64,000 nucleotides of DNA, from positions 291,317 to 355,316 of the forward strand of contig JAHDHL010000002.1 in NCBI GenBank assembly GCA_020631355.1. The letters are read 5' to 3'. Source of the stretch: Saprospiraceae bacterium. GTDB taxonomy: Bacteria > Bacteroidota > Bacteroidia > Chitinophagales > Saprospiraceae. Position 1 is the first letter of the stretch; every line of letters starts with the position of its first letter. Shown here in pieces: positions 52,102 through 58,586 of the stretch. The position numbers were made by a program, and so were the translations under genes. The notes beneath the pieces are model-generated. The model made no database searches, was not told the DNA's origin, and saw nothing but the letters and a program-made list of their open reading frames with translations.

Positions 52102-52608
52102 ATGAATAGATACTTGGCCATACTCCTTCTTCTCATTTTATCAACCTCGGGCTGCGCAGAGTTGAAGCAGATAAAAAATAATGATACAGTAATTGAAAAC
52201 GAAACGAATATGAAGCAACAAATCGCGACTTTTCTGACATTCCAAGATAACAATGCTGAAAATGCCATGAATTTTTATGTGGGATTATTCGATAATTCTA
52301 AAATCATCAAGATTGATAGATGGGGAGAAAATAGTCCCGGCAAAGAGGGACAAATCATGCACGCGACATTCGAATTGAATGGAAAGTTATTCATGTGTAG
52401 TGATAGCCCTCCGATTCACGATTGGGATTTCACACCTGCAATTTCCAACTTTGTAGAATGTGGGAATGATGCAGAAATTGAGCGACTATTCTCCGAATTA
52501 TCTGAAGGTGGCACCGTAACCATGCCATTGAACAACTATGGATTCAGTCAAAAATTCGGTTGGGTGATTGACCCATTCGGTATTTCGTGGCAATTGAATC
52601 TGAAATAA
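52102..52608 (+). CDS. VOC/glyoxalase-fold protein (PhnB-like) lipoprotein
   Basis: FLTFQDNNAENAMNFYVGLF...IMHATFELNGKLFMCSD...FGWVIDPFGISWQLN pattern, typical of the PhnB/3-demethylubiquinone-methyltransferase-like VOC family. Confidence 0.6.
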   Translation: MNRYLAILLLLILSTSGCAELKQIKNNDTVIENETNMKQQIATFLTFQDNNAENAMNFYVGLFDNSKIIKIDRWGENSPGKEGQIMHATFELNGKLFMCSDSPPIHDWDFTPAISNFVECGNDAEIERLFSELSEGGTVTMPLNNYGFSQKFGWVIDPFGISWQLNLK

Positions 52609-52674
52609 AATAACACACAAGTAAGCCATGTCATTTACTTGATACCAATCGGGCAACATCTCAATATCCTTGTT

Positions 52675-53145
52675 ATGAAGAATCAATTCATCATCATTCT
52701 TTTTACCCTGTTCCTATACTCCTGTCATACCTCTCCCACAGAAATCCCGACTGTTGAGGAGGGGATGGAAGAAGTGGTTGATATCCGTACGGAACCTGAT
52801 TATGCGGATTGGGAAACATTCTGGACCACATTCCAAAAAGCAGCTGCGGATGATGACAAAGCAACCATTGCCGGAATGACACTATTCGGGAATCATATAC
52901 AGGAAGAATTCTTCAATGATAATTATACGGTATTCTTCGGTCAGGAAATGAAAGAAATCATTGCCAAGACCCAAGCTTCAGATGTGGAAAAGGTACATGA
53001 TATGGAATTCCCCGACGGGCGTTCTATCACCTATGAGGAATTTGACATTGATGAGGATGGGAATGAAGTGGGTTCTGCACTGATGATTTATTTTGGGAAA
53101 CAGGATGGTATTTTTAAGATTATGATGTTTTTTGCGGCTGGGTGA
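52675..53145 (+). CDS. Hypothetical lipoprotein
   Basis: Lipobox LFLYSC. Acidic. Start taken at MKNQFIII. Confidence 0.4.
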   Translation: MKNQFIIILFTLFLYSCHTSPTEIPTVEEGMEEVVDIRTEPDYADWETFWTTFQKAAADDDKATIAGMTLFGNHIQEEFFNDNYTVFFGQEMKEIIAKTQASDVEKVHDMEFPDGRSITYEEFDIDEDGNEVGSALMIYFGKQDGIFKIMMFFAAG

Positions 53146-53160: not shown

Positions 53161-55233
53161 TCACACCTTCGCCTTATCATTCACTTTTTTAATTATTTGT
53201 AACAATTTCATTCTCAATTTATCTTCTCTAATCGTAACCAAATCTAAGGGTTTTCTAGTAAAAATTCGATCTTCCTCATTCATTTTGTATTCATAAGACA
53301 AGTGATTTAATTCCTGTTCATAGTCGCCTAAAACCTTTAGAATTTCTATCGCTTTTAATGGATGGTTTATTGAAACCTGATACTCAGCATTCTGCAAAGT
53401 ATAATCTATAGTATCAGCAGCATCTCTATCTAATTCATTAAAACCCATCATACCCAAATCAATTCCTGATAATTGATAAATTCCTACAAGAAACATTCTA
53501 ACAATATTGGTTAATCCTCCGTACCATTCCACACCATTAATCAAACCTGACATATTTTTAAATTTCAACGAATTATAATTAGTTGATAATAAATTAAACC
53601 AGTCGAATTTATTGAAGTATTCTGTTTGAATAGAAAGAAATACTTCGCCATTCATAATGGGGTACTCACATTTTTCTAAATCCTTAAACTCAGAGTCAAT
53701 CAAAACACTAAAATGATTCCCATAAGTATAACTTTTCTCTAATCTTCCTATAAGATATTTCAAGGCATTATATATCTTATTCTTCTCTATTTCTGCGTCT
53801 TCTATTTCTTCAATGCCTAAATAGGACTTGTATTCATTGCTTCTTTCTCTATCCGCCAACATTTGGAGAAAATACCACTCATCACCATCTACGGAATGGG
53901 TTACTAAATAATAGTCTATTAAAGAAATAGCGTGTGGAATTGCTTTAGCATTCACAAATTCAAGAGCTAAATCTAAATAATCAACCCTATTGACATTCTT
54001 ATTATTAAGGATTTGCAAAATACATATCAAAGCATTTATTATTTTACAATACTCCTTATAAAAATAAACAAAGGTAACCAACATCGTATCATAGGCTAGT
54101 TCCAAAAGCTTAGCCCTAAATGAAAACAAGGTCAGTTCAATCCTGACAAGAGGTACATCCTTGTACTTCTCCCTTAATTGCTTAACAGCATCAACAATAG
54201 AGTTCTTCGAAATTAATTCAAGGACATGAACAAAATCATTATCGTCCTGAGGGGAATAATTTTGGATATCCTTTACTACATCATTTAAATGAAAATTCAC
54301 ATCAGCGACTCCCTCTTTAATTCTCACCCCCCATTCTTCCTCTATTTTATCACATAGTATCATCTTATTTTTCAAGCCACACAGTAAAAACTCATATCCC
54401 TTTGGTAGCTTCTCATATGCTAAACAATACTTCTGCAAATCTTCAGATGCAGCATCAAAATAGCCTTTCTTCGCTAATGATAATACATTCTTAAATGGGT
54501 CTACTTTTGGATACAACACAAATCTTCCCAATTCGTCTCCTCTTACATCCAATGGTCTGAATATAGGATTTTGACGCTCTTTCGTTTCTAATCGAACTGC
54601 ATCAGATACACTATTTGCTAGCTTACTAACAGACAATGGACCATTATTCTTTTCTAATTCTGCTAATAGATTCTTAGCAAATGGACTATTTTCTTCCTCA
54701 TTTCCATCTAATGCATACTCCCTACTATGGCAAGATGAAAACCCATTACGTGATGGCCTTTTCTCATCTTTTCGATTGGATATTGAACTCTTAGTTTTCA
54801 AGAAAATACTTCCAGAAAAACAAGCATCCACTACTAGTAACATATGATGACAACCTACTGATTTTAACCTATCAGTTAAGTCACTAGAAGATACGAAACC
54901 AGAATCAACACCTTTCTTTGCTCCGAAAGGAAGCCAATAACCTATGTCATCTATGTTTTCGCCGTGACCAGAGAAATAAATAATTAGATTATCATCCTTT
55001 GTAACTTGACCTCTCAAACTCCTTATCGCAGAAAGTATGTTATCCCTAGTAGCATTCTCGTTAAATAATGGAGAACCACCAATTAGTTCAAATTGATATT
55101 TATTTACTAGTATCGATGAAATTTTCTTGGCATCGTATACACAATTATCTAGTTCCGTAAGGCCATTTTTGTATTTATCTATCGCAATGAACAAGCAATA
55201 ATTCTTTCCTTTCAAAATTTCATTACTTGGCAT
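53161..55233 (-). CDS. Caspase-like (peptidase C14) protein with a 450-aa C-terminal domain of unknown function
   Basis: YCLFIAIDKY...DNLIIYFSGHG (catalytic His) ...HMLLVVDACFSG (catalytic Cys) give the canonical caspase His-Cys dyad. The remainder is helical with no known motif. AT-rich gene. Confidence 0.7.
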   Translation of the reverse strand: MPSNEILKGKNYCLFIAIDKYKNGLTELDNCVYDAKKISSILVNKYQFELIGGSPLFNENATRDNILSAIRSLRGQVTKDDNLIIYFSGHGENIDDIGYWLPFGAKKGVDSGFVSSSDLTDRLKSVGCHHMLLVVDACFSGSIFLKTKSSISNRKDEKRPSRNGFSSCHSREYALDGNEEENSPFAKNLLAELEKNNGPLSVSKLANSVSDAVRLETKERQNPIFRPLDVRGDELGRFVLYPKVDPFKNVLSLAKKGYFDAASEDLQKYCLAYEKLPKGYEFLLCGLKNKMILCDKIEEEWGVRIKEGVADVNFHLNDVVKDIQNYSPQDDNDFVHVLELISKNSIVDAVKQLREKYKDVPLVRIELTLFSFRAKLLELAYDTMLVTFVYFYKEYCKIINALICILQILNNKNVNRVDYLDLALEFVNAKAIPHAISLIDYYLVTHSVDGDEWYFLQMLADRERSNEYKSYLGIEEIEDAEIEKNKIYNALKYLIGRLEKSYTYGNHFSVLIDSEFKDLEKCEYPIMNGEVFLSIQTEYFNKFDWFNLLSTNYNSLKFKNMSGLINGVEWYGGLTNIVRMFLVGIYQLSGIDLGMMGFNELDRDAADTIDYTLQNAEYQVSINHPLKAIEILKVLGDYEQELNHLSYEYKMNEEDRIFTRKPLDLVTIREDKLRMKLLQIIKKVNDKAKV

Positions 55234-55765
55234 TCTGTTTTTTTCTTTTCTTATCCATTTCGTACATCAATTCCCAAAAGTCGTTCAGATATAATGTATC
55301 TGTATAAACTTTCGAAGAATCGACACTCAATACTGACTGACGAACGATGAAATGCTCTTTATTCGCAGGCTCTTTGGGAACTGGTTGATTTATTTCTTCT
55401 TTTTTATTCAAGGACTGATATCCAAAAATAGCCGTAAATATTAACGCAAGAATGAACAGTCCAAATTGGCACGAATAATAAAGTCTAACACTACCTCCAT
55501 TAATAGAATATTCGCCACTTTGCCCATCATCCTTAATTGGCTGTAGAGTTCCTGTCAGTGACATTAGGGTAAATATCCCAAACAATATGGAAAAAATGAA
55601 CGCACCCCATGCTAATCCTAATAACCAGATACTATCCTCGTTACCTCCCCCTACGATATTCTTAGAAAAAGCAATGGTAACTGTAATAATAGCCGACGAA
55701 ATCGATATAAGTTGCTTGGCAGTATCAGCAGCAAAATCAAATGCTTTTTTTTCATTTTCTTTCAT
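55223..55765 (-). CDS. Small multi-TM membrane protein co-transcribed with the caspase-like gene
   Basis: 180 aa with 3 TM helices and a cytoplasmic tail. The last 11 bp overlap the caspase-like gene start. Confidence 0.5.
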   Translation of the reverse strand: MKENEKKAFDFAADTAKQLISISSAIITVTIAFSKNIVGGGNEDSIWLLGLAWGAFIFSILFGIFTLMSLTGTLQPIKDDGQSGEYSINGGSVRLYYSCQFGLFILALIFTAIFGYQSLNKKEEINQPVPKEPANKEHFIVRQSVLSVDSSKVYTDTLYLNDFWELMYEMDKKRKKQNAK

Positions 55766-55768
55766 AAT

Positions 55769-56074
55769 CTAACATATTGGCCATAGTGGGCAGAAGAATT
55801 GCTTCACCTTAGCCAAGGCGTCAGCCTCTACCACTCCATCCCCGCTTCTGTAAGTAGTAGTATGGTTTTCTAGTTCCCTAATTATTTTGATGAAATTCTG
55901 TTTCGCAGCATCAATTGAAGATGGAGAAACCCTATCTTCCATCACCATACGGTCAGCTGACCGCTCTACTAACTTTCTGAATACAGGATAAAATTCATCT
56001 GAAATTTCTGCATTCAATTTATTTAATGCAATTAAAGATGCTTCCATAAGCTGATCAACAATTTCTTCTTTCAT
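55769..56074 (-). CDS. Small (101 aa) soluble helical protein, first gene of the operon
   Basis: Ends 3 bp before the membrane-protein start. No known motif. Confidence 0.4.
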   Translation of the reverse strand: MKEEIVDQLMEASLIALNKLNAEISDEFYPVFRKLVERSADRMVMEDRVSPSSIDAAKQNFIKIIRELENHTTTYRSGDGVVEADALAKVKQFFCPLWPIC

Positions 56075-56248
56075 ATTTTTATTTATTTAGAATCTGTTCC
56101 TGAAATTAAGTATTACAATAATCAATTCATAATTCAATTATCATTTTCCACAACCCCTATGTCATTCCTCTCCCCTCCCCTCTGGAACTTATTCTCCATT
56201 TTATTGCTTTATTGTAGCGAATTGATAATAAAAAATCGCTAACCATTC

Positions 56249-56280
56249 CGGACCAAAGTTGCTTACAACTTTGGTCCGGA
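56249..56280. promoter_or_regulatory. Perfect 14-bp inverted repeat (candidate operator) in a divergent promoter region
   Basis: ccggaccaaagttg-ctta-caactttggtccgg, 15 bp upstream of the nucleoside-hydrolase-like start and about 175 bp upstream of the caspase operon start. No U-tract on either side. Confidence 0.35.
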
Positions 56281-56295
56281 AACATAATACCCAAA

Positions 56296-57222: not shown

Positions 57223-57837
57223 TCAGGATTTCCTTACAGGTATCTGTCGAATCAGCTCATCATATTTATTCAAGACATTGAGATAATCCAAATGTATATC
57301 AGTCATTTTATTATCCGCATCCAATCTGGTGGATTCACCATTCACAACCTTAATCATTTTGGATAAATCATTCTGACCATTGCGTATTCTCTCTTTTGTC
57401 AGAATGACTTGTTGGTTGATTGTATTTTCCATGATTTCTTTCAACCAATCATCCACAATACCCGTAATCTTAAATTGACCGAAATATGTTGCGATAATGA
57501 TTTGGGGCAAAATGGATAGGAAATATTTATATTCTTCTTCAATACGAAATATTTCTTCTACTTCGGTTATTTTTAATTTAGGGATAATGACATGAGTCTC
57601 CCATTCCCACCTTTTGAGAAAACGGTCTAGGAAATCAAGCAGGAATAACTTTTCTCCTTTTTTCTTATAATATTCTTCCAGTTGGTCTAAGACATCCCAA
57701 CCCTCATCATTCCCGAATGGTGCGAATTCTTCCAGTATACTGATAAAAAAGTCATCAGGTAATAATTGATTGAAATGTGGATGACAATACTCCCTTTCCA
57801 AATCAAAATCATCGTTGCAAAAGTATAGTTTCGACAT
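57223..57837 (-). CDS. Hypothetical cytoplasmic protein (downstream partner of the Cys-rich secreted protein)
   Basis: 204 aa, acidic, no signal peptide. 95 bp downstream of the 57933 gene on the same strand. Confidence 0.45.
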   Translation of the reverse strand: MSKLYFCNDDFDLEREYCHPHFNQLLPDDFFISILEEFAPFGNDEGWDVLDQLEEYYKKKGEKLFLLDFLDRFLKRWEWETHVIIPKLKITEVEEIFRIEEEYKYFLSILPQIIIATYFGQFKITGIVDDWLKEIMENTINQQVILTKERIRNGQNDLSKMIKVVNGESTRLDADNKMTDIHLDYLNVLNKYDELIRQIPVRKS

Positions 57838-57932: not shown

Positions 57933-58586
57933 CTATTCAGGAATACATTCACAAATCTTTGCATTAGGCTTTCCCGTTGTAGGATTATAACTACCACAAC
58001 ATGAATAGAAACCCTCCCCACAGCTGACAGAACACTTAACTGATATACTCGCTGATGCGACTCCTACACCACCATCAATACTACAACCCTTGGAACCCTC
58101 TCCTCCTGCAAAACAGATAAGTGTTTCGGTGGTATCATTTCCTCTTGTTTCATCATTATCAAATCCATCAAAAGGTAAACCAGTAGTTTTCGATAAGGCT
58201 TCATAAACACTACCTGTTGACTGTATTTCTAACTTGAACTTATCAGTGGAAACCCTTTCCTCTAGGGATATCTTAGCAAGGCCATAACCTGAATACTTCA
58301 CCTGTTCTTTTGCAACACCTGTTACACCAAAGGTTACGTTCTTTTCTCCATTCGATATGGAAAGAAAATCTTCAGTATAATGTACCTTATAATCAGGATA
58401 ACTATCATCCAATCGGCTAGAATTACCTTGCAGTACAAAGAATTCATTTGTCATTCCATCCTCATTTAATAGGATAGCCAATTCATCATTTTGGGATGAT
58501 AATACTTCGATTGTATTTTTAGTGGATGTTGTTGCTTTAGAATTGGTTTGGGAACAATTCAGAGAAACCAGAATCACACTAGACAC
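57933..58586 (-). CDS. Secreted protein with the novel Cys-rich C-terminal domain (paralog of 23292-23909); start codon uncertain
   Basis: C-terminus CSIDGGVGVASASISVKCSVSCGEGFYSCCGSYNPTTGKPNAKICECIPE. N-domain similarity AILLNEDGMTNEFFVLQGN versus IMKINEQGNVTEYFVIQN. The frame is open upstream (KFNIIKFISILFIVSSVILVSLNC, a signal or lipoprotein peptide) but has no in-frame ATG; a GTG or a rarer codon serves as start. Confidence 0.5.
   Translation of the reverse strand: MSSVILVSLNCSQTNSKATTSTKNTIEVLSSQNDELAILLNEDGMTNEFFVLQGNSSRLDDSYPDYKVHYTEDFLSISNGEKNVTFGVTGVAKEQVKYSGYGLAKISLEERVSTDKFKLEIQSTGSVYEALSKTTGLPFDGFDNDETRGNDTTETLICFAGGEGSKGCSIDGGVGVASASISVKCSVSCGEGFYSCCGSYNPTTGKPNAKICECIPE

What the first reader, a model, noticed from the sequence alone, without database searches (positions are those of the whole stretch)
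53161..56280. Low-GC three-gene operon: small protein, multi-TM protein and caspase-like protein, with a perfect operator-like palindrome
The operon lies on the minus strand. The 101-aa protein ends 3 bp before the next start. The 180-aa protein has three TM helices, and its last 11 bp overlap the start of a 690-aa protein whose N-terminal 230 aa form a canonical caspase/peptidase C14 domain (His in YFSGHG, Cys in VVDACFSG). About 450 aa of unknown helical domain follow. The whole block is visibly more AT-rich than its neighbours, suggesting horizontal acquisition. Caspase-like proteases paired with membrane-active partners recall bacterial gasdermin and other abortive-infection modules, but the 180-aa partner is a true TM protein, not gasdermin-like. 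A perfect 14-bp inverted repeat with a 4-nt spacer (56249-56280) sits in the divergent promoter region shared with a nucleoside-hydrolase-like gene, which suggests dedicated repressor control.
Basis: partly seen in the sequence, partly recalled or inferred. Interest (0 to 1): 0.75.

Follow-up and report, generated by a model that had tools for sequence, protein, structure and literature searches.

The report
Caspase gene joined to membrane cassette
The three genes are real, but they are two separate modules joined only in this genome: a widespread, unnamed small-protein plus membrane-protein pair, and a rare caspase-like protease with adaptor-type helical repeats, so this is a one-off combination, probably defence-related, rather than a conserved three-gene system.

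Summary
All sequence features exist. The three minus-strand ORFs are present, with a 3-nt gap and an 11-nt overlap. The caspase His/Cys dyad is intact and the membrane protein has three TM helices. The block has the lowest GC in the window. The palindrome has 16-nt arms, not 14.

The trio is not a conserved system. The conserved unit is the pair: a ~100-aa helical protein ending in C-P-x-[WFY]-P-x-C-stop, followed directly by the 3-TM protein. This pair was found in 92 of 102 testable loci across several phyla. It has no third conserved gene and no match in Pfam, NCBIfam, PADLOC, PHROGs or PDB. It often sits beside defence genes.

The 690-aa protein belongs to a tiny family (22 representatives among 1.84 billion proteins). 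Its ~460-aa tail is built of EAD11-like adaptor units. Relatives stand alone or next to EAD11/CHAT/caspase genes, and once next to a YLATT 3-TM gene. None has this pair.

My best reading is a composite, horizontally acquired conflict locus. Coupling between protease and pair is plausible, from the overlap and from caspases near 4 of 87 other pairs, but unproven.

The palindrome abuts the nucleoside-hydrolase start codon and is not a feature of the pair elsewhere.

The parts
53161..55233 (-). 690-aa caspase-like protease with a C-terminal helical region of EAD11-like units
   Evidence: ORF. Pfam Peptidase_C14. Only about four full-length homologues among 5.8 billion sequences. The C-terminal domain family has 22 representatives among 1.84 billion.
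54559..55203 (-). Caspase (Peptidase C14) domain, residues 11-225. The catalytic His90 codon is 54964-54966 and the Cys138 codon is 54820-54822.
   Evidence: H90 and C138 invariant. (fold matches MALT1 and metacaspases, Foldseek E about 1e-7).
53998..54234 (-). EAD11-like helical unit, residues ~334-412
   Evidence: hhalign of the family C-terminal profile against the EAD11 repeats of P0186: 71% probability, full-length match. Pfam EAD11 passes its cut-off at the equivalent position in relatives P0172 and P0180.
53734..53976 (-). EAD11-like helical unit, residues ~420-500 (weaker support)
   Evidence: hhalign 44% probability, full-length match. Pfam EAD11 E=0.094 on the window protein at residues 463-500.
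53173..53394 (-). C-terminal EAD11-like unit, residues ~614-687, with the invariant EED...K...R motif
   Evidence: hhalign 77% probability. Pfam EAD11 at 33.1 bits (cut-off 26) at the same position in relative P0175. E653, E654, D655, K661 and R669 are invariant.
55223..55765 (-). 180-aa three-helix membrane protein, the conserved partner of the small protein
   Evidence: 52 homologues without any Pfam family. AF2 gives three long helices with pLDDT up to 95. Invariant N-terminal segment K7, F9, A12, K17, Q18, L19, I20.
55223..55233 (-). 11-nt overlap between the TM stop and the caspase ATG, created by a window-specific ~20-aa C-terminal extension of the TM protein
   Evidence: Sequence. The alignment shows homologues ending shortly after the DTLYL motif. 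The extra helix is 161-179.
55769..56074 (-). 101-aa soluble helical protein, the first gene of the conserved pair
   Evidence: The family was recovered by an iterated HMM in the upstream ORF of 29 of 30 genome loci and in 92 of 102 loci overall. No Pfam family and no PDB relative.
55772..55792 (-). C-terminal motif C95-P-L-W-P-I-C101 followed directly by the stop codon
   Evidence: C95, P99 and C101 are invariant and P96 is at least 90% conserved in 60 sequences. 85 of 94 distinct family members end exactly on the second Cys, and 73 fit CPx[WFY]PxC.
56075..56295 (.). 221-nt divergent intergenic region between the 101-aa gene and the IU_nuc_hydro gene
   Evidence: One sigma-70-like match at 56165-56137(-) is no better than the number expected from shuffles.
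56246..56281 (.). Perfect inverted repeat with 16-nt arms and a 4-nt loop, 14 nt upstream of the hydrolase ATG
   Evidence: No Rfam match. No T-run directly after it on either strand.

Best explanation
The locus is a composite of two independently distributed modules inside a low-GC, probably horizontally acquired block.

Module A (shown). This is an autonomous two-gene cassette found across Bacteroidota, Acidobacteriota, Pseudomonadota and other phyla. It consists of a ~100-aa cytoplasmic helical protein that ends in an invariant Cys-Pro-x-aromatic-Pro-x-Cys clasp, tightly linked (typical gap 3-12 nt) to a 3-TM protein with an invariant N-terminal juxtamembrane segment.

Module B (shown). This is a rare caspase-like protease with an intact His/Cys dyad. 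Its ~460-aa tail is a tandem array of EAD11-like helical adaptor units. Elsewhere, relatives are encoded alone or next to other EAD11, CHAT or caspase genes.

The join (shown). Only here are the two modules fused into one operon. The TM gene has been extended by ~20 codons so that its stop overlaps the caspase start.

Inferred mechanism. Module A works like a membrane-acting toxin/effector held in check by its small partner. The Cys clasp and the conserved TM N-terminus are the likely contact. The caspase-EAD11 protein oligomerises or is recruited through its EAD11 units when a threat is sensed. In this genome it supplies a proteolytic trigger or amplifier for the membrane effector, ending in membrane damage of the abortive-infection type.

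The palindrome is most likely a cis element of the neighbouring nucleoside-hydrolase gene, or the edge of the inserted block, and not a dedicated operator of the operon.
For: Pair as the conserved unit:
- tblastn finds the small gene directly upstream of the TM gene in genome loci and never the caspase.
- The HMM recovers the small protein in 92 of 102 loci with room upstream, with a modal gap of 3 nt.
- Clustering of 1245 neighbouring ORFs finds no conserved third gene.
- The C-terminal motif is invariant.

Defence-type surroundings of the pair. Neighbours include SoFic x2, Shedu SduA, AbiH, a CBASS cyclase with S_4TM, RM methylases and a ThsB-TIR+caspase pair.

Caspase family:
- The dyad is invariant and the fold matches.
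- The C-terminal domain is almost always joined to this caspase.
- EAD11 passes Pfam's cut-off in P0175, P0172 and P0180, and P0186 is LRR + 5xEAD11.
- Profile-profile comparison gives three full-length EAD11 matches plus two weak in-register ones.
- Relatives sit next to a 163-aa EAD11 protein (L129) and an EAD11+CHAT protein (L131). This fits the EAD homotypic-coupling principle of Kaur et al. 2020 (PMC7159879 section 30).

Coupling in this genome:
- The 11-nt overlap and the unique TM tail extension.
- Caspase-domain genes lie within 2.4 kb downstream of 4 of 87 dereplicated other pairs. Poisson p is 0.0003-0.04 for assumed background rates of 0.05-0.2% of genes.
- In L078 the caspase is in a tight same-strand cluster with the pair.
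- The family member P0036 directly follows a different 3-TM protein, YLATT.

Acquisition: lowest GC and GC3 in the window.
Against: - No experiment or co-fold supports any contact between the three proteins.
- More than 95% of pairs have no caspase, so the pair must work without one.
- The caspases near other pairs belong to other subfamilies and lack the EAD11-like tail. One of them is clearly part of a separate TIR+caspase system, so the enrichment may only reflect shared defence islands.
- The background rate used for the enrichment is assumed, not measured.
- The window protein itself does not reach Pfam's EAD11 cut-off (13.1 against 26 bits). The assignment rests on relatives and on hhalign probabilities of 44-77%.
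- No other EAD11 protein is encoded in the 64-kb window.
- The pair matches no defence model convincingly. Only 3 of 27 TM members hit PycTM, at E of 2e-4 or weaker.
- About half of the pair's neighbours are ordinary metabolic genes.
- No homologue of the TM protein was found in 50,697 phage records, and only one on a plasmid record, a 1.8-Mb replicon.
Confidence: 0.45

Rival explanations
1. Two unrelated modules lie side by side by island accretion. The pair and the caspase-EAD11 gene each work on their own, and the overlap and co-transcription are accidents of insertion. The caspase answers to an EAD11-bearing sensor encoded elsewhere in the genome.
For: The pair occurs without a caspase in more than 95% of loci. 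Caspase family members occur without the pair in all eight distinct loci examined. EAD-bearing effectors are often encoded away from their core system (PMC7159879 section 30). In L042 the neighbouring caspase belongs to a separate TIR+caspase system. The TM tail extension looks like a junction scar.
Against: Independent systems rarely share overlapping stop and start codons. Caspase genes are more frequent downstream of the pair than the assumed background, including a tight same-strand cluster in L078. No EAD11 partner is visible in the 64-kb window, but the rest of the genome was not available.
Confidence: 0.3
2. One reading: a dedicated three-gene abortive-infection system. The caspase cleaves the membrane protein in a gasdermin-like way, and a repressor bound at the palindrome controls the operon.
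For: The operon is tight and the dyad is intact. There is a general precedent for protease-activated membrane effectors, and a predicted EACC1-caspase membrane system (PMC7159879 section 33).
Against: The trio is not syntenic anywhere else. The TM protein is a constitutive 3-TM bundle with no soluble pro-form. The palindrome sits 14 nt from the hydrolase ATG and 172 nt from the operon's first ATG. It has no counterpart upstream of 92 other pairs. No regulator gene is present in the block.
Confidence: 0.08
3. The pair is not a defence element. It is an accessory membrane module, for example a redox- or metal-sensing membrane stress regulator that uses the two C-terminal cysteines. The caspase carries out ordinary regulated proteolysis.
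For: Two invariant cysteines flanking prolines and aromatics could bind a metal or heme, or form a redox switch. Many neighbours of the pair are metabolic or two-component genes: histidine kinases occur in 7 loci, with transporters and dehydrogenases as well. There are no phage or PADLOC family matches.
Against: The distribution is patchy across phyla, the surroundings are variable and no conserved regulon partner exists. Classical defence genes are repeatedly adjacent. The TM protein has no conserved Cys or His to complete a metal site.
Confidence: 0.15

Closest known systems
EACC1-caspase two-gene membrane-associated conflict system (Kaur, Burroughs, Iyer, Aravind 2020, eLife; PMC7159879 section 33; a computational prediction)
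   Same: A small membrane-protein gene lies directly 5' of a gene for an N-terminal caspase with a variable C-terminal region. The proposed logic is a membrane component that talks to a caspase. The best NCBIfam hit of the window caspase is 'caspase, EACC1-associated type'.
   Different: EACC1 is a single-TM domain with a glycine patch. Here the partner has three TM helices, no Pfam match, and comes with an extra small soluble protein. The NCBIfam score is 53.5 against a cut-off of 140. The pairing here is unique to this genome, whereas the EACC1-caspase pair is constant. The taxon also differs: Bacteroidota-like here against mainly Actinobacteria.
EAD (effector-associated domain) coupled effectors, specifically EAD11 (Pfam PF19964)
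   Same: The tail of the family carries EAD11 units. Relatives are adjacent to other EAD11 proteins, including EAD11+CHAT, as the homotypic-adaptor model predicts (PMC7159879 section 30).
   Different: EADs are usually single N- or C-terminal copies. Here there are three to five tandem, highly divergent units. No EAD11-bearing core NTPase or sensor is visible in the window. The window protein alone is below Pfam's cut-off.
YLATT (YEATS-like-associating three-TM, PF20303) protein followed by a caspase, as in locus L003
   Same: A ~200-aa 3-TM protein gene lies immediately upstream of a full-length member of the same caspase-EAD11 family (P0036), inside a defence island with BREX.
   Different: The window's TM protein shows no detectable similarity to YLATT: BLASTP E=1.9, hhalign probability 0.4%. 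L003 has no small Cys-clasp protein.
Bacterial gasdermin-protease operons and type IV Thoeris (TIR + caspase-like protease; bioRxiv 10.1101/2024.10.24.620036)
   Same: A caspase-family protease is used in bacterial immunity or cell death. In L042 a ThsB-TIR+caspase pair sits next to the small+3TM pair.
   Different: The window block has no gasdermin and no TIR gene. The membrane partner is an integral 3-TM protein, not a soluble pore-former released by cleavage.
Short multi-TM effectors of Pycsar/CBASS (PycTM, 2TM, S_4TM) and SLATT-type effectors
   Same: A small helical membrane protein is the likely terminal effector. Weak PADLOC hits of 3 of 27 family members to PycTM and one to a CBASS 2TM effector.
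   Different: The hits are at E of 2e-4 or weaker and may be compositional. There is no nucleotide-sensing domain and no cyclase partner. The constant partner is the Cys-clasp protein.

Membership tests
Peptidase C14 (caspase / metacaspase / paracaspase superfamily) | Sequence match to the family model above the curated cut-off | tested here: met
   PF00656: 86.5 bits against a cut-off of 21.4, residues 11-225.
Peptidase C14 (caspase / metacaspase / paracaspase superfamily) | Catalytic His-Cys dyad in the SGHG and D-x-C-x-SG motifs | tested here: met
   H90 (FSGHG) and C138 (DACFSG) are invariant in five full-length relatives.
Peptidase C14 (caspase / metacaspase / paracaspase superfamily) | Caspase-hemoglobinase fold | tested here: met
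   The AF2 domain has pLDDT about 80. Foldseek top hits are MALT1 and metacaspases, E 2e-7 to 1e-5.
EACC1-caspase two-gene system | 5' gene encoding the single-TM EACC1 domain | tested here: not met
   The upstream protein has three TM helices. It has no Pfam or NCBIfam match even at E up to 10.
EACC1-caspase two-gene system | Caspase of the EACC1-associated subfamily (NCBIfam NF047832, cut-off 140 bits) | tested here: not met
   53.5 bits.
EACC1-caspase two-gene system | Constant pairing of the membrane gene with the caspase gene across genomes | tested here: not met
   No caspase of this family in the 117 TM-family loci fetched (L004-L120; 113 carry a TM ORF by HMM), and no pair in eight distinct caspase-family loci.
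EAD11 (PF19964) adaptor-domain proteins | Match to the EAD11 model above cut-off (26 bits) | tested here: inconclusive
   The window protein scores 13.1 bits, E=0.094. Full-length relatives P0175 (33.1), P0172 (29.9) and P0180 (28.5) pass. hhalign of the family profile against P0186 repeats gives 77%, 71% and 44% for three full-length units.
EAD11 (PF19964) adaptor-domain proteins | A second protein with the same EAD encoded nearby or in the genome (homotypic coupling) | tested here: inconclusive
   Met for relatives: L129 has a 163-aa EAD11 protein and L131 has EAD11+CHAT. Not met within the 64-kb window. The rest of the genome was not available.
YLATT three-TM effectors (PF20303) | Sequence or profile similarity to YLATT | tested here: not met
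   No Pfam hit at E up to 10. BLASTP E=1.9. hhalign probability 0.4%.
Bacterial gasdermin-protease system | A gasdermin homologue adjacent to the protease | tested here: not met
   Neither partner has a gasdermin match in Pfam or PADLOC. The partner is an all-helical integral membrane protein.
Type IV Thoeris (TIR + caspase-like protease) | A TIR-domain gene in the operon | tested here: not met
   No TIR domain among the ORFs from 51.5 to 58.6 kb. A ThsB-TIR+caspase pair is present only in locus L042.
RiPP-type precursor with maturation enzymes | A conserved modifying enzyme or transporter gene next to the Cys-containing precursor | tested here: not met
   No conserved third gene among 1245 neighbouring ORFs. 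Radical SAM genes occur in only 2 of 148 neighbours.
Toxin-antitoxin-like membrane toxin with a protein inhibitor | Toxicity of the TM protein relieved by the small protein | not testable with these tools
   Only indirect support: strict two-gene synteny, tight gene spacing, patchy distribution and variable surroundings.

The most novel reading that the evidence does not exclude
The small protein plus 3-TM pair is a new class of self-contained membrane-acting cell-suicide or exclusion module. In this reading, the terminal Cys-Pro-x-aromatic-Pro-x-Cys clasp of the small protein plugs or latches the three-helix membrane protein. Basic-residue-specific proteolysis fires the system, at the conserved Arg/Lys 4 residues before the first Cys (11 from the C-terminus; 56 of 76 sequences). 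In this genome the captured caspase-EAD11 protease, whose S-G-H and D-x-C pocket motifs resemble Arg/Lys-specific metacaspases, would do the cutting. It would release either the active pore or a short disulfide-cyclised C-terminal peptide.
Probability: 0.1. Interest if true: 0.8.

Novelty: new variant of a known kind. Interest (0 to 1): 0.55.

Why it matters
Three points would interest people who work on bacterial immunity and cell death.

1. The study defines a widespread two-gene cassette that no database names: a small protein with an invariant C-terminal Cys clasp plus a 3-TM protein. It repeatedly sits among defence genes, which makes it a concrete candidate for a new membrane-acting defence or toxin-antitoxin system that can be tested with two small genes.

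2. It assigns the 'unknown' tail of a rare caspase family to tandem EAD11-like adaptor units. It also shows relatives next to other EAD11 and CHAT proteins, which is independent support for the predicted Death-domain-like coupling logic in bacteria.

3. This genome offers a natural fusion of the two modules. It could show how protease triggers are plugged into pre-existing membrane effectors.

If the modules turn out to be independent, the locus is simply a small defence-island fragment.

Tried and rejected
- **YLATT identity of the 180-aa protein:** rejected.
- **EAD11-like fold of the 101-aa protein,** which would have linked it to the caspase tail: rejected. hhalign probability is 0.2% against EAD11 and 0.06% against the tail profile.
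- **Shared C-terminal domain between the window caspase and the caspases near other pairs:** none found.
- **Conserved third gene next to the pair:** none found.
- **Pfam, NCBIfam, PADLOC and PHROGs matches for the pair:** none convincing.
- **PDB sequence search** with the small-protein profile and with the caspase-tail profile: only noise, such as designed helical repeats and IpaD.
- **Homologue search with the single 101-aa sequence:** returned only itself, because the word index is too insensitive. This wasted one capped search.
- **afdb50 fold library:** unavailable.
- **Phage and plasmid searches with the TM protein:** no phage hit. One unannotated hit on a 1.8-Mb Halomonas replicon.
- **Palindrome:** no Rfam family, no copy in viral contigs, no second copy in the window, no canonical terminator T-run. 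The sigma-70 scan is no better than shuffles, and it does not cover Bacteroidota-type promoters.
- **Look-up of the window caspase by exact sequence:** not on record. Three short contigs of the same strain add no context beyond the window.


Full report
**1. Observation**

The three minus-strand ORFs are as described:
- a 101-aa protein at 55769-56074;
- a 180-aa protein at 55223-55765;
- a 690-aa protein at 53161-55233.

The first two genes are separated by 3 nt. The TM stop and the caspase start overlap by 11 nt (ATGCCAAGTAA). No alternative start is available for the caspase, and homologues align from residue ~8 onward.

The block has GC 0.337 against a window mean of 0.403. It is the lowest 2.9-kb stretch in the window. 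Its GC3 is 0.28-0.34 against 0.46-0.49 in neighbouring genes.

The palindrome is real and longer than reported. It has perfect 16-nt arms at 56246-56261 and 56266-56281 with a 4-nt loop. It is unique in the window and very stable as a hairpin (-27.2 kcal/mol, z=-6.7).

**2. The caspase protein**

- Pfam Peptidase_C14 covers residues 11-225 (E=2.9e-24).
- H90 and C138 are invariant in the five full-length relatives.
- The AF2 model has a well-predicted caspase domain. Its best structural matches are MALT1 paracaspase and metacaspases.
- From my own recollection of metacaspase structures, not tested here, the S-G-H and D-x-C motifs are those of Arg/Lys-specific family members.

A search of 5.8 billion proteins found many proteins with a similar caspase domain fused to other C-terminal domains (FGE-sulfatase, WD40, TPR, FISUMP). 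Only four align over the full length (P0002-P0004 at 35-36% identity, P0036 at 25%).

An exhaustive profile search with the C-terminal 460 residues found only 22 representatives among 1.84 billion. Nearly all full-length ones have the same caspase at the N-terminus.

The tail is not anonymous:
- Pfam EAD11 (effector-associated domain 11) passes its cut-off in relatives P0175, P0172 and P0180.
- The most distant hit, P0186, is an LRR protein with five EAD11 repeats.
- A profile-profile comparison of the family tail with those repeats gives three full-length matches. They correspond to window residues ~334-412, ~420-500 and ~614-687, at 71%, 44% and 77% probability. Two weak in-register matches suggest an array of up to five units.
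- The window protein alone stays below Pfam's cut-off, so this assignment is family-level.

**3. Context of the caspase family**

- L001 and L002 (the closest relatives), L128 and L130 have solitary genes among housekeeping genes. In L001 an IS element splits the gene.
- In L129 the gene follows a 942-aa caspase and a CHAT protein, and it precedes a 163-aa EAD11 protein.
- In L131 it lies next to an EAD11+CHAT protein.
- In L003 it follows two further caspase genes and a YLATT three-TM protein, 3 kb from BREX genes.

This is the pattern that Kaur et al. predicted for EADs: adaptor domains that couple effectors and signalling proteases through homotypic contacts, by analogy with Death/CARD domains (PMC7159879 section 30). 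None of these loci contains the small protein or the window's TM family.

**4. The small protein and the TM protein**

The TM protein has 52 homologues, none with a Pfam domain. Scans of one genome per species and of metagenomes returned 117 loci, of which 113 carry a TM ORF by HMM.

- tblastn and an iterated HMM show a ~100-aa ORF of one family directly upstream on the same strand in 92 of 102 loci that have room for it. The modal gap is 3 nt.
- The small proteins are only 10-35% identical to the window's. C95, P99 and C101 are nevertheless invariant, and P96 is nearly so.
- Of 94 distinct sequences, 85 end exactly on the second cysteine and 73 fit CPx[WFY]PxC. Arg/Lys stands 4 residues before the first cysteine in 56 of 76.
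- The family has no Pfam, NCBIfam, PADLOC, PHROG or PDB relative.

The taxa include Bacteroidota, Acidobacteriota, Alpha- and Gammaproteobacteria, Polyangia, Tissierellales and others. I found no homologue of the TM protein in phage records and only one on a plasmid record, a 1.8-Mb replicon.

**5. What lies next to the pair**

There is no conserved third gene. The neighbours are a mixture:
- defence genes: SoFic twice, Shedu SduA, AbiH, a CBASS cyclase with an S_4TM effector, several RM methylases and a ThsB-TIR+caspase pair;
- ordinary genes: histidine kinases, dehydrogenases and transporters.

Caspase-domain genes lie within 2.4 kb downstream of the pair in 4 of 87 dereplicated loci. This is more than expected if 0.05-0.2% of genes are caspases (Poisson p 0.0003-0.04), but that background rate is my assumption.

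These caspases belong to other subfamilies and lack the EAD11-like tail:
- The one in L042 belongs to a type IV Thoeris-like TIR+caspase pair on the other strand (bioRxiv 10.1101/2024.10.24.620036).
- The one in L078 is in a tight same-strand cluster: small, TM, an unknown 470-aa gene, then the caspase.

**6. Interpretation**

The conserved, selectable unit is the two-gene pair. The caspase-EAD11 gene is a separate, rare module. They are joined only here.

The window's TM protein carries a unique ~20-residue C-terminal extension that runs into the caspase start. This looks like a junction formed when the two modules were brought together.

Strict synteny, tight gene spacing, patchy phyletic spread and variable, often defence-rich surroundings point one way. 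The pair most likely acts as an autonomous membrane-acting module with a built-in regulator, in the manner of a toxin-antitoxin or abortive-infection system. That mechanism is inferred, not shown.

I consider the caspase a locally recruited trigger or amplifier, with about even odds against simple adjacency. The overlap and the recurrent caspase neighbours favour coupling. The independence of both modules elsewhere favours adjacency.

**7. The palindrome**

It lies 14 nt from the start codon of the divergent nucleoside-hydrolase-like gene (Pfam IU_nuc_hydro). It is 172 nt from the first start codon of the operon, at the point where GC rises from 0.33 to 0.45.

- It has no Rfam match.
- It has no terminator-type T-run.
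- It has no copy in viral contigs.
- No comparable repeat exists upstream of the pair in 92 other loci.

It is a genuine non-random element, but nothing links it to the operon. A leader hairpin or operator of the hydrolase gene, or the border of the inserted block, are the simpler readings.

**8. Comparison with known systems and verdict**

The closest described system is the predicted EACC1-caspase membrane-associated pair (PMC7159879 section 33). The locus works like it on paper, but it fails each membership test:
- three TM helices instead of one;
- no EACC1 match;
- a caspase subfamily score of 53.5 against a cut-off of 140;
- no constant pairing.

It is not a gasdermin, Thoeris or YLATT system. 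I classify it as a new variant of the known theme 'caspase-family protease plus membrane partner in a conflict locus'. It is built from one unnamed widespread cassette and one rare EAD11-type caspase. The three-gene-system interpretation and the operator interpretation are not.

Noticed in passing
window 57223-57837(-) and 57933-58586(-): A second low-GC patch (GC 0.34 and 0.38; GC3 0.36 and 0.26) lies on the other side of the normal-GC hydrolase gene. It holds a 204-aa ORF and a 217-aa ORF with a Cys-rich C-terminus. Neither matches Pfam, NCBIfam, PADLOC or PHROGs. The hydrolase gene is therefore flanked by two AT-rich blocks of unknown genes.
   Followed up: partly
L001:4853-8034: The caspase-EAD11 homologue P0004 is split near its N-terminus by a DDE_Tnp_4 insertion sequence. 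A 57-aa ORF upstream of the IS carries the missing caspase start.
   Followed up: partly
L003:1-14256: The locus holds an array of three caspase-domain genes (1307+, 670 and 751 aa) with a YLATT three-TM gene before the last one. The BREX genes brxA, brxB and brxC follow about 3 kb downstream.
   Followed up: partly
L042:1624-3028 (also L043): In a human-gut contig the small+3TM pair is followed on the opposite strand by a 126-aa ThsB-like TIR gene and a 337-aa caspase gene. This is the architecture of type IV Thoeris.
   Followed up: partly
L078:1823-5577: A same-strand cluster runs small protein, 3-TM protein, a 470-aa protein with no Pfam match, then a 470-aa caspase. The gaps are 12, 39 and 23 nt. 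It is the only other locus where a caspase looks operonic with the pair.
   Followed up: partly
L129:94-6833 and L131:5001-8270: Relatives of the window caspase sit next to a 163-aa EAD11 protein, a CHAT protein and an EAD11+CHAT protein. This suggests multi-protease assemblies coupled through EAD11.
   Followed up: partly
L036:4873-5994: In a Sphingomonadaceae genome the small-protein domain, with its CPIFPFC end, is the C-terminus of a 373-aa protein. The domain can therefore be fused to a larger N-terminal region of unknown function.
   Followed up: no
L124 (NZ_CP040452.1 20425-20676): A TM-family match lies on a 1.8-Mb Halomonas replicon with no annotated feature under it in the PLSDB gene table, which lists one feature for the whole record.
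   Followed up: no
window 52102-52608(+) and 52639-53145(+): Downstream of the caspase, on the other strand, lie a 3-dmu-9_3-mt/glyoxalase-family protein and a 168-aa protein with no family match. The latter's stop is only 15 nt from the caspase stop, and no terminator is detectable between the convergent genes.
   Followed up: no
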